Below, piece after piece: positions 30,932 to 31,638 of a stretch of 64,000 nucleotides of DNA (position 1 is the stretch's first letter; every line of letters begins with the position of its first letter). The position numbers were made by a program, and so were the translations under genes. The DNA comes from Escherichia coli (GTDB lineage: Bacteria; Pseudomonadota; Gammaproteobacteria; Enterobacterales; Enterobacteriaceae), in assembly GCF_048403405.1 (NCBI RefSeq), contig NZ_CP183129.1. One strand, written 5' to 3'. The notes below the pieces were generated by a model. The model saw only the letters and a program-made list of their open reading frames with translations. It was not told where the DNA came from and ran no database searches.

Positions 30932-31638
30932 AATATCCTCCGGCATAGCCGGAGGTTTTTCAAATGCGCCTATAAGGCTCTCTTACCAGCCGCGCCCTAA
31001 CAGGCGCACACGATCTGACATTTGCATCCAACTTCGTTACTTACGGCCCGTAAACGGGCTGCCCGGATAGGGAATCGATAACTGCTCTCCCATTTTATCC
31101 TCTTCAAGCTGGTGCTTTATGTAATCCTGTATCTTCGCCGTGTTCTTACCCACCGTATCGACGTAGTACCCTCTGCACCAGAACTCCCTGTTCCTGTATT
31201 TGAATTTCAAATCACCAAACTGCTCGTAAAGCATCAGACTGCTTTTCCCTTTCAGATATCCCATAAAGCCGGATACGCTCATTTTGGGCGGGATCTCCAC
31301 AAGCATATGGATATGATCTGCACAGCATTCAGCTTCCAGAATCCGTACACTTTTCCACTCACACAGCTTTCTCAAAATACTGCCTATTGCTCTACGCTTC
31401 TCTCTGTAGAACACCTGTCTTCGGTATTTTGGCGCAAAAACTATGTGATATTTACAGTTCCATCGGGTGTGCGCTAAGCTCTTTTCGTTCCCCATTGGGA
31501 CCCCCTTTTGATTTCTTGTTTGACACTTGCAGTTGCCAGACCGCAAGGTGTTTTAACAAATCAAAAGGGGTTTTAATAACTGGCTTAAAGCTGAAAGCTT
31601 TCCGGAACCCCCAGCCTAGCTGGGGGTTTTCTGTGCAC
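30932..31638 (-). mobile_element. IS200-like insertion sequence (IS200/IS605 family), apparently complete; ends approximate (+/- ~10 bp)
   Basis: Encodes a 152-aa Y1 HUH transposase; an 8-bp-stem subterminal hairpin near each end (30937-30955 and 31608-31626) and a 13-bp stem occluding the tnpA SD; inserted in the A/T tract next to the rrn terminator; about 707 bp. Confidence 0.8.
31037..31495 (-). CDS. tnpA: IS200 transposase TnpA (Y1 HUH)
   Basis: 152 aa from ATG at 31493-31495: MGNEKSLAHTRWNCKYHIVFAPKYRR...CADHIHMLVEIPPK... (HuH motif HIHML, catalytic Tyr region); SD aaggggg; track ORF has a 17-codon extension. Confidence 0.9.
   Translation of the reverse strand: MGNEKSLAHTRWNCKYHIVFAPKYRRQVFYREKRRAIGSILRKLCEWKSVRILEAECCADHIHMLVEIPPKMSVSGFMGYLKGKSSLMLYEQFGDLKFKYRNREFWCRGYYVDTVGKNTAKIQDYIKHQLEEDKMGEQLSIPYPGSPFTGRK

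What the first reader, a model, noticed from the sequence alone, without database searches (positions are those of the whole stretch)
30937..31626. IS200 regulatory architecture visible in sequence: twin subterminal hairpins and an SD-occluding 13-bp stem
Both element ends carry closely related 8-bp-stem hairpins on the same strand (cccccagc-cta-gctggggg at 31608-31626 and cctccggc-ata-gccggagg at 30937-30955). This matches the subterminal hairpins that Y1 transposases recognise on single-stranded DNA. In the tnpA 5' UTR a perfect 13-bp inverted repeat (31502-31514 paired with 31558-31570) would sequester the SD aaggggg (rc of 31500-31506). That is the classic mechanism keeping IS200 transposase translation low. 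The 43-nt loop could also be the target of an antisense RNA, which is my inference and not something I can see directly.
Basis: partly seen in the sequence, partly recalled or inferred. Interest (0 to 1): 0.3.

Follow-up and report, generated by a model that had tools for sequence, protein, structure and literature searches.

The report
Textbook IS200 ends and translation lock

Summary
Window 30928-31638 (minus strand) is a 711-bp IS200C element. It sits between the rrnC/trpT terminator and hdfR, and I mapped its ends against empty sites in other E. coli genomes. Both hairpins lie inside the element: the left one 10-12 nt from the left end, the right one 9 nt from the right end. The 13-bp stem pairs six of the eight Shine-Dalgarno (SD) bases. 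The positions match the published IS200 map: terminator hairpin at nt 12-34, SD stem-loop at nt 69-138, antisense RNA art200. Rfam family STnc490 matches at 146 bits. Across about 75 relatives from many species, all 13 pairs of the SD stem keep pairing through changes on both sides. Both end hairpins do the same.

- The left hairpin has a 10-bp stem and is also the published bidirectional terminator.
- The SD coordinates are off by one.
- The "43-nt loop" is a structured upper stem-loop. It coincides with the published art200 pairing region (-23 to -62).

Side observation: this element and most of its relatives sit directly after a host terminator hairpin and its T-run. I could not find this stated in the papers I could search.

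The parts
30928..31638 (-). Complete IS200C element, 711 bp. The left end (LE) is at 31638 and the right end (RE) at 30928. The boundary could slide left by up to 2 T from the empty-site comparison alone.
   Evidence: Empty sites L002 and L003 read AAGGA-T8-ATCTGAAAT. The filled site reads AAGGA-T7-[GTGCACAG...ATATTTATT]-TATCTG. Relatives end at ...TTTATT followed by variable flanks. Copies 100% identical exist in other E. coli genomes and are annotated IS200C.
31606..31628 (-). LE subterminal hairpin AACCCCCAGC-TAG-GCTGGGGGTT (10-bp stem, 3-nt loop). It is the published bidirectional terminator and the presumed TnpA binding site on the top strand.
   Evidence: It matches the published position nt 12-34. 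In 74 distinct sequences, 98.5% of cells are paired and 6 of 10 pairs show compensatory change.
31627..31630 (-). AAAA just 5' of the 8-bp core of the LE hairpin. This is the position of the guide tetranucleotide in the IS608 paradigm.
   Evidence: AAAA in 61 of 62 relatives. The paradigm is described in PMC6006769. A guide role here is inference.
31587..31601 (-). Small hairpin AAAGCT-TTC-AGCTTT at the start of the tnpA transcript (published transcription start about nt 40).
   Evidence: Rfam consensus structure; helix 2: 76.9% paired, 4 of 6 pairs compensatory.
31558..31570 (-). Anti-SD arm CCCCTTTTGATTT, the 5' arm of the 13-bp lower stem.
   Evidence: The published lower-stem mutations at -69 to -75 map to 31564-31570.
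31515..31557 (-). Upper stem-loop between the arms. It includes the apical hairpin TTGCGGT-CTGGCA-ACTGCAA (31527-31546). This is the region that pairs with art200.
   Evidence: helix 4: 94.7% paired, 6 of 7 pairs compensatory. Published pairing at -23 to -62 equals 31518-31557.
31502..31514 (-). SD arm AAATCAAAAGGGG, the 3' arm of the lower stem. It holds 6 of the 8 nt of the SD AAGGGGGT (31500-31507).
   Evidence: The SD is paired in 65 of 66 independent folds of relatives. All 13 pairs are compensatory.
31037..31495 (-). tnpA, a 152-aa Y1 (HUH) transposase. ATG at 31493-31495.
31487..31576 (+). Predicted position of the antisense RNA art200 (STnc490), about 90 nt. A possible -35 TTTACA lies at 31451-31456.
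   Evidence: [quoted passage not shown] The Rfam RF01405 hit covers the region. Expression in this strain was not tested, and the promoter assignment is inference.
30937..30955 (-). RE subterminal hairpin CCTCCGGC-TAT-GCCGGAGG. It is preceded by AAAAA (30956-30960) and followed by ATATTTATT (30928-30936). It is also terminator-like on both strands.
   Evidence: Of 8 pairs, 4 are compensatory and none is broken in 44 relatives.
30965..31008 (-). Conserved structured segment between the tnpA stop codon and the RE hairpin, with further small hairpins.
   Evidence: Inverted repeat I3. A covarying GCC/GGC helix and visibly covarying GCGCC..GGCGC arms appear in relatives. Function unknown.
31639..31666 (-). 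Host rrnC/trpT Rho-independent terminator: hairpin 31645-31666 and T-run 31639-31645. The IS inserted directly after the seventh T.

Best explanation
The region is a complete, apparently functional IS200C element of the IS200/IS605 family. It carries the standard IS200 architecture, and different parts work at the DNA level and the RNA level.

At the DNA level, the two related subterminal hairpins lie on the same (top, tnpA-sense) strand. Each is preceded by an A-rich tetranucleotide. They are the sites the Y1 transposase would bind on single-stranded DNA in order to cut after T-rich sequences: the flank TTNTT at the left end and the terminal TTATT at the right end. This step is inferred from the IS608 paradigm.

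At the RNA level, four published mechanisms apply:
- The left hairpin acts as a bidirectional terminator that blocks transcription reading in from outside. Here that would be read-through from rrnC.
- The tnpA 5'UTR folds so that a 13-bp lower stem buries the Shine-Dalgarno sequence and blocks 30S binding.
- The antisense RNA art200 pairs with the upper stem-loop and adds a second block.
- Hfq adds a third block.

Together these keep transposase translation and transposition very low.
For: - Structures present and far beyond chance.
- Element ends mapped against empty sites, hairpins inside them.
- Intact Y1 transposase with HUH and Tyr aligned to IS608.
- RefSeq annotation as IS200C; full-length copies in 2063 of 5426 complete E. 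coli genomes.
- Rfam RF01405 match at 146.1 bits against a gathering score of 56.
- Positions agree with the published IS200 map. Experiments show a 20-fold higher toeprint and 50-fold higher tnpA-lacZ when the lower stem is mutated, and art200 pairing at -23 to -62: PMC4513863.
- The terminator stops about 85% of upstream transcripts: PMC5435999.
- Comparative test: the SD is paired in 65 of 66 independent folds. On an alignment of 76 loci, 93.7% of cells are paired, against 37-47% when partners are slid. All 13 SD-stem pairs, 6 of 10 LE-hairpin pairs and 4 of 8 RE-hairpin pairs are kept through changes on both sides.
- The LE and RE hairpins share invariant bases (CCnC...G, loop starting with T) and the A-rich 5' flank. 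An LE hairpin is closer to its own RE hairpin than to those of other elements, in 0 of 5000 permutations.
- Orientation puts the top strand on the lagging-strand template, as expected for this family; PMC5027513.
Against: - Nothing was measured for this copy or this strain. The experiments were done with Salmonella IS200, and I could not retrieve a Salmonella copy for a direct alignment.
- TnpA binding to IS200 hairpins and the guide role of AAAA are by analogy with IS608. They are not demonstrated in any paper I could read.
- By a simple consensus scan the LE hairpin is not terminator-like on the sense strand, because only two T follow it. Its terminator role therefore rests on the literature.
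- The model-based alignment (A4) leans towards the structure it was fitted to. The alignment-free folds and the slide control offset this.
- Covariation in the stems cannot by itself say whether the sense RNA or the antisense RNA is the selected fold. One conserved G-U pair in the apical hairpin (64 of 74 sequences) favours the sense strand.
Confidence: 0.93

Rival explanations
1. The end hairpins are only transcription terminators: the left one shields tnpA, the right one ends tnpA and incoming hdfR transcripts. On this view they have no role in transposase recognition.
For: The published terminator role of the left hairpin. The right hairpin is terminator-like on both strands. A bioRxiv paper mentions a weak native IS200 terminator.
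Against: A terminator needs a stable stem and a U-tract, not a particular sequence. Yet LE and RE share invariant bases, a 3-nt loop starting with T and an A-rich 5' flank from Gammaproteobacteria to Firmicutes, and each LE tracks its own RE. The LE hairpin lacks a T-run on the sense strand. Family members with solved mechanisms use exactly such hairpins (PMC6006769, PMC5027513). The two roles are compatible.
Confidence: 0.05
2. The long inverted repeat in the 5'UTR is conserved because it shapes the antisense RNA art200, or a trans-acting 5'tnpA sRNA. Hiding the SD would then be a by-product.
For: Both strands share the same complementarity, so covariation does not name the strand. art200 is abundant, and the 5'UTR is processed into an sRNA that regulates invF in Salmonella.
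Against: Lower-stem mutations raise 30S binding 20-fold in vitro without art200, and raise expression 50-fold in vivo. The SD itself is always one arm of the helix, in 65 of 66 relatives, although the arm sequences differ. The conserved G-U pair in the apical hairpin would be a C-A mismatch in the antisense RNA.
Confidence: 0.1
3. The inverted repeats are chance features of an AT-rich intergenic stretch, or the element is a decayed relic without function.
For: None found.
Against: Shuffle controls. The ORF is intact with its catalytic residues. There are 100% identical copies at other sites. Covariation is family-wide.
Confidence: 0.01

Closest known systems
IS200 of Salmonella enterica (Lam and Roth; Beuzon and Casadesus; Ellis, Trussler and Haniford 2015, PMC4513863)
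   Same: Same size class (published 707 bp, here 711 bp). A single tnpA. A left terminator hairpin at nt 12-34, an SD-sequestering stem-loop at nt 69-138 and the SD AAGGGGGT. The antisense art200 region, with the Rfam STnc490 model matched end to end.
   Different: This is the E. coli variant IS200C. A few base differences from the Rfam consensus lie in unpaired or upper-stem positions. No experiments exist for this copy. I could not retrieve a Salmonella copy for direct alignment.
IS1541 of Yersinia pestis and Y. enterocolitica
   Same: 87.5-87.7% DNA identity over the whole element. Identical LE and RE hairpins in Y. pestis. The same SD stem. It also sits after a terminator hairpin and T-run.
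   Different: Different host and copy number. The Y. enterocolitica copy has a damaged left hairpin.
IS608 of Helicobacter pylori and ISDra2, the mechanistic paradigm of the IS200/IS605 family
   Same: Homologous Y1 HUH transposase, with catalytic residues aligned. Subterminal hairpins on one strand, a tetranucleotide 5' of each hairpin foot, insertion 3' of a short AT-rich sequence without duplication, and orientation with the lagging-strand template.
   Different: IS200C has no tnpB. Its hairpins are perfect rather than imperfect palindromes. The likely target is a T-run (TTNTT) rather than TTAC or TTGAT. Binding and cleavage are not shown for IS200 in what I could read.
IS10 RNA-IN / RNA-OUT antisense control
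   Same: A cis-encoded antisense RNA that blocks 30S binding to the transposase mRNA.
   Different: In IS200, pairing is limited to about 40 bp of a structured upper stem-loop. It acts alongside an intramolecular SD-hiding stem and Hfq.

Membership tests
IS200/IS605 family, IS200 group (IS200C) | Encodes a Y1 (HUH) transposase with an HUH motif and a catalytic tyrosine | tested here: met
   Pfam PF01797, E = 3.8e-38. H61-I62-H63 and Y125 align with H64/H66/Y127 of IS608 TnpA, PDB 2a6m.
IS200/IS605 family, IS200 group (IS200C) | Small element of about 0.7 kb with tnpA only and no tnpB | tested here: met
   711 bp between the mapped ends. The 152-aa tnpA is the only ORF matching a known protein family, and 711 bp leaves no room for a tnpB.
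IS200/IS605 family, IS200 group (IS200C) | No terminal inverted repeats and no target-site duplication | tested here: met
   The ends GTGCACAG... and ...ATATTTATT are unrelated. Filled versus empty site shows a clean 711-bp insertion. A 1-nt T ambiguity cannot be excluded.
IS200/IS605 family, IS200 group (IS200C) | Subterminal hairpins at both ends on the same strand, each preceded by a guide-position tetranucleotide | tested here: met
   AAAA lies 5' of both 8-bp cores.
IS200/IS605 family, IS200 group (IS200C) | Insertion 3' of a short conserved AT-rich sequence flanking the left end, resembling the right-end terminus | tested here: met
   Seven distinct E. coli sites end in TTNTT immediately before the IS, and the RE ends in TTATT.
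IS200/IS605 family, IS200 group (IS200C) | Near identity to a named reference element | tested here: met
   RefSeq calls the same insertion and 100% identical copies 'IS200C family transposase'. ISfinder itself could not be consulted.
IS200/IS605 family, IS200 group (IS200C) | Strand-specific single-stranded 'peel and paste' transposition, with TnpA bound to the hairpins | not testable with these tools
   Only indirect support: the top strand is on the lagging-strand template.
IS200 tnpA 5'UTR control module (Beuzon 1999; Ellis 2015) | Left-end terminator hairpin at nt 12-34 | tested here: met
   31628-31606 equals nt 12-34 if nt 1 is 31639, or nt 11-33 if nt 1 is 31638. Termination activity was not tested.
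IS200 tnpA 5'UTR control module (Beuzon 1999; Ellis 2015) | Stem-loop at nt 69-138 that pairs the Shine-Dalgarno sequence | tested here: met
   31570-31502. It is present in the minimum-energy and centroid folds with z = -4.96. All 13 pairs are compensatory across relatives.
art200 / STnc490 (Rfam RF01405) | Sequence and structure match above the curated threshold | tested here: met
   146.1 bits against a gathering score of 56, model positions 1-124 of 124, at 31505-31628. The match is on the tnpA-sense strand, whereas art200 is described as antisense.
art200 / STnc490 (Rfam RF01405) | An antisense transcript is actually made from about nt 153 | not testable with these tools
   No expression data. 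A candidate promoter, TTTACA-17 nt-CTAAGC at 31451-31479, is inference. The sigma-70 scan found none, in line with the published 'almost unrecognizable' -10.

The most novel reading that the evidence does not exclude
IS200-group elements may be terminator-seeking transposons. In this reading the A-rich guide next to the left hairpin selects the T-tract that follows a Rho-independent terminator hairpin on the lagging-strand template. The element's own left hairpin then takes over as terminator. That would give a near-neutral landing site and could explain how an almost immobile element persists from Enterobacteria to Firmicutes.

My data show the adjacency strongly: 75% of junctions against 6% of TTNTT sites in the window. 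They cannot separate targeting from selective survival of harmless insertions. I could not establish whether this is already described in papers that are not held.
Probability: 0.3. Interest if true: 0.45.

Novelty: already known. Interest (0 to 1): 0.12.

Why it matters
For the finding itself, little. It re-derives from raw sequence the published control architecture of IS200: terminator hairpin, SD-hiding stem and antisense art200. It shows this for one more copy in E. coli. It does show that sequence reading alone recovered a correct mechanism, including the antisense target. The comparative data add a clean covariation record for the SD stem and for both end hairpins across about 75 loci from distant bacteria. 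The side observation could matter more. If insertion directly behind terminators reflects guide-directed target choice, IS200 would join group IIC introns as a mobile element that uses terminators as safe sites. It would also give a simple rule for predicting and reprogramming its insertion sites.

Tried and rejected
- Direct alignment with a Salmonella IS200 left end. No Salmonella collection was available. A plasmid search with the Rfam consensus returned Yersinia copies first. The single genome-contig scan returned other genera. I used published coordinates, the Rfam consensus and Yersinia IS1541 instead.
- Older primary papers and reviews are not held: Beuzon 1997 (PMC146608), Odaert 1998 (PMC106867), Siguier 2014 (PMC7190074) and He 2015. 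Beuzon 1999 (PMC148624) was not requested. The supplement of Ellis 2015 is not held either.
- RNAalifold on a plain MAFFT alignment of 66 5'UTRs found the LE hairpin and the apical hairpin but missed the SD stem, because the 3' arm was misaligned. I replaced it with alignment-free folds and a covariance-model alignment.
I repeated it at 1e-6.
- A search for the oriC 13-mer pattern found nothing. I inferred replication direction from GC skew instead.
- Three literature searches for terminator targeting by IS200 or IS1541 found no explicit statement. The only related item was the remark that IS1541 sits between pheL and pheA in Yersinia.
- Chance and relic explanations were rejected by the shuffle controls and the intact ORF.

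Full report
**What is there.** The window carries the end of the E. coli rrnC operon on the minus strand: 23S, 5S at 31888-32003, tRNA-Asp and tRNA-Trp at 31676-31833. hdfR lies on the plus strand at 30028-30867. Between them, on the minus strand, is an ORF of 152 aa (31495-31037). It matches Pfam Y1_Tnp "Transposase IS200 like" at E = 3.8e-38. In RefSeq the same insertion in strain FDAARGOS_448 is annotated "IS200/IS605-like element IS200C family transposase". Only 6 of 5426 complete E. coli genomes have the element at this locus. Full-length copies occur somewhere in 2063 genomes, with up to 35 places per genome.

**Boundaries.** Two genomes with an empty site read AAGGA-TTTTTTTT-ATCTGAAAT. 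The window reads AAGGA-TTTTTTT-GTGCACAG...GGATATTTATT-TATCTGAAAT. The insert is 711 bp with no target duplication. Relatives at other sites always end in ...TTTATT followed by unrelated sequence. This fixes the right end at 30928 and the left end at 31638. The left hairpin therefore starts 10-12 nt inside the left end, and the right hairpin ends 9 nt inside the right end.

**Check of the observation.**
- The left hairpin is longer than stated: a 10-bp stem at 31606-31628.
- The right hairpin has an 8-bp stem at 30937-30955.
- The two differ by two compensated stem pairs and one loop base.
- Each folds well as single-stranded DNA (z = -3.6 to -4.8). The left hairpin sequence has no chance expectation in the window.
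- The 13-bp perfect repeat 31558-31570 / 31502-31514 is confirmed. It dominates the RNA fold of the minus-strand transcript: -61.5 kcal/mol, z = -4.96, and no shuffle folds as well.
Six of the eight SD bases (published form AAGGGGGT) lie in the stem.
- The 43 nt between the arms are not a loop. They form an upper stem-loop with an apical 7-bp hairpin and a 6-nt loop, CUGGCA.

**Agreement with published IS200.** Ellis, Trussler and Haniford (PMC4513863) describe IS200 as follows.
- It is 707 bp long, with a terminator inverted repeat at nt 12-34.
- A second inverted repeat at nt 69-138 sequesters the SD (AAGGGGGU).
- tnpA transcription starts near nt 40.
- A 90-nt antisense RNA, art200 (formerly STnc490), starts at nt 153/154. 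[quoted passage not shown]

Counting from the left end, these positions fall on 31628-31606, 31570-31502, about 31600 and 31487-31486. These are exactly the features seen here. Lower-stem mutations at -69 to -75 (here 31564-31570) raised the toeprint 20-fold and tnpA-lacZ 50-fold. PMC5435999 adds that the left inverted repeat is a strong bidirectional Rho-independent terminator that stops about 85% of upstream transcripts. Rfam family RF01405 (STnc490) matches 31505-31628 end to end at 146.1 bits, against a gathering score of 56.

**Comparative test.** One scan of species-representative genomes with the TnpA protein returned 80 loci, from Dickeya, Citrobacter, Vibrio, Erwinia and Edwardsiella through to many Firmicutes genomes. 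I added Yersinia IS1541 and further E. coli copies.
- Folding each of 66 distinct 5'UTRs on its own put the SD 5-mer in a helix with upstream sequence in 65 cases, with a mean pairing probability of 0.965.
- A covariance model built from 12 sequences aligned 76 loci. On that alignment 93.7% of cells form standard pairs, against 37-47% when partners are slid by 1-3 columns.
- The SD stem has a change on both sides at all 13 pairs and is 97.5% paired.
- The left hairpin has such changes at 6 of 10 pairs and is 98.5% paired.
- The apical hairpin has them at 6 of 7 pairs.
- The right hairpin keeps all 8 pairs in 44 sequences, four of them through compensatory change.
- Left and right hairpins share the pattern CCnC..G. 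/ T.. / .C..GnGG, and both are preceded by an A-rich tetranucleotide: AAAA in 61 of 62 left ends and 34 of 62 right ends. An element's left hairpin is closer to its own right hairpin than to others (0 of 5000 permutations).

A terminator role alone does not predict this shared sequence. Recognition by one protein does, as in IS608, where TnpA binds subterminal hairpins and a tetranucleotide 5' of the hairpin foot pairs with the cleavage site (PMC6006769).

**Transposase and orientation.** The HUH motif (H61, H63) and Y125 align with H64, H66 and Y127 of IS608 TnpA, so the enzyme looks intact. The GC skew of the window reaches its cumulative minimum near 52 kb. The fork therefore passes the IS towards lower coordinates, and the tnpA-sense (top) strand is the lagging-strand template. 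This is the orientation favoured by this family. IS608 is also reported to insert often in rrn operons (PMC5027513).

**How it most likely works.**
- Shown by others for Salmonella IS200, and matched here by sequence and position: the left hairpin terminates incoming transcription; the lower stem hides the SD; art200 pairs with the upper stem-loop; Hfq binds just upstream of the SD.
- Inferred: the same two end hairpins, read as single-stranded DNA on the top strand, are the TnpA binding sites. The AAAA next to them acts as the guide for cleavage after T-rich sequences.
- Also inferred: the right hairpin probably ends the tnpA transcript and, on the other strand, incoming hdfR transcripts.

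**Side observation.** In the window the IS sits directly after the seventh T of the rrnC/trpT terminator.
- Six further E. coli sites are each preceded by a hairpin and a T-rich run ending TTNTT: L086, L087, lacZ-lacY, cysH, carB and plaP-sbcB.
- Across species, 45 of 60 distinct upstream flanks pass a strict test for a terminator-like hairpin plus T-run abutting the left end. The corresponding controls on downstream flanks gave 1 of 48 and 0 of 48.
- Only 6.3% of all TTNTT sites in this window, with the IS removed, pass the same test.
- A paper notes in passing that IS1541 lies between pheL and pheA in Yersinia, which is where the attenuator terminator lies.
- Whether this reflects target choice or survival of harmless insertions cannot be decided here. 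I could not find it stated in the searchable library, and the most relevant older papers are not held.

**Verdict.** The feature is an already known architecture in an ordinary, widespread insertion sequence.

Noticed in passing
window 31639-31666 (host terminator) abutting the IS left end at 31638; also L085-L087, L089-L092 and most of L004-L083: IS200-group elements sit immediately 3' of a host Rho-independent-terminator-like hairpin and T-run. This holds for 45 of 60 distinct junctions, against 1 of 48 and 0 of 48 in downstream-flank controls and 6.3% of TTNTT sites in the window. Seven E. coli sites end in TTNTT before the IS, resembling the right-end terminus TTATT. I did not find this stated in the searchable literature.
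   Followed up: partly
window 30956-30960 and 30928-30936; right ends of L015, L019, L021-L024, L046, L048, L053, L056, L070: The 4-mer 5' of the right hairpin seems to covary with the tail after the hairpin. AAAA and AATA go with ATATTTATT-like tails. AGAA goes with C-containing tails (GTTCCTTTT, GTTACTTTT). ACAA goes with G-containing tails (ATGTGTTCA, ATGGTTTT). This hints at guide-cleavage-site pairing as in IS608. The right-end boundaries of these variants were not mapped.
   Followed up: no
window 30965-31008 (minus strand), between the tnpA stop codon and the right hairpin: This is a conserved, structured 3' segment with further small hairpins that covary across the family (GCGCC..GGCGC and GCC..GGC / GGGC..GCCC). 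I know of no assigned function.
   Followed up: partly
window 31505-31628: The Rfam RF01405 (STnc490) model matches the tnpA-sense strand and includes the left terminator hairpin. Yet art200/STnc490 is described as antisense and as starting at IS nt 153. The Rfam family may be built in the opposite orientation or on the 5'tnpA region.
   Followed up: no
window about 48000-56000: The cumulative GC skew has its minimum here and the skew changes sign, which suggests that the chromosomal replication origin lies in the window. A search for the oriC 13-mer pattern found nothing.
   Followed up: partly
L010 about 1160-1260, just past the right end of its IS200-like copy: In Enterobacter sp. Bisph1 a second, divergent left-end-like sequence (hairpin CCCCAGTCAGGCTGGGG, then a UTR-like stretch ending AAATCAAAGGGGG) directly follows the first element. 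This suggests tandem or nested IS200-like copies.
   Followed up: no
L088 904-1051 (E. coli plasmid NZ_CP083479, next to iss): A left-end/5'UTR-like segment, 74% identical to the window's, scores 93 bits with the structural model, but no tnpA was found by similarity in the fetched stretch. It may be a remnant or a divergent IS200 relative.
   Followed up: no
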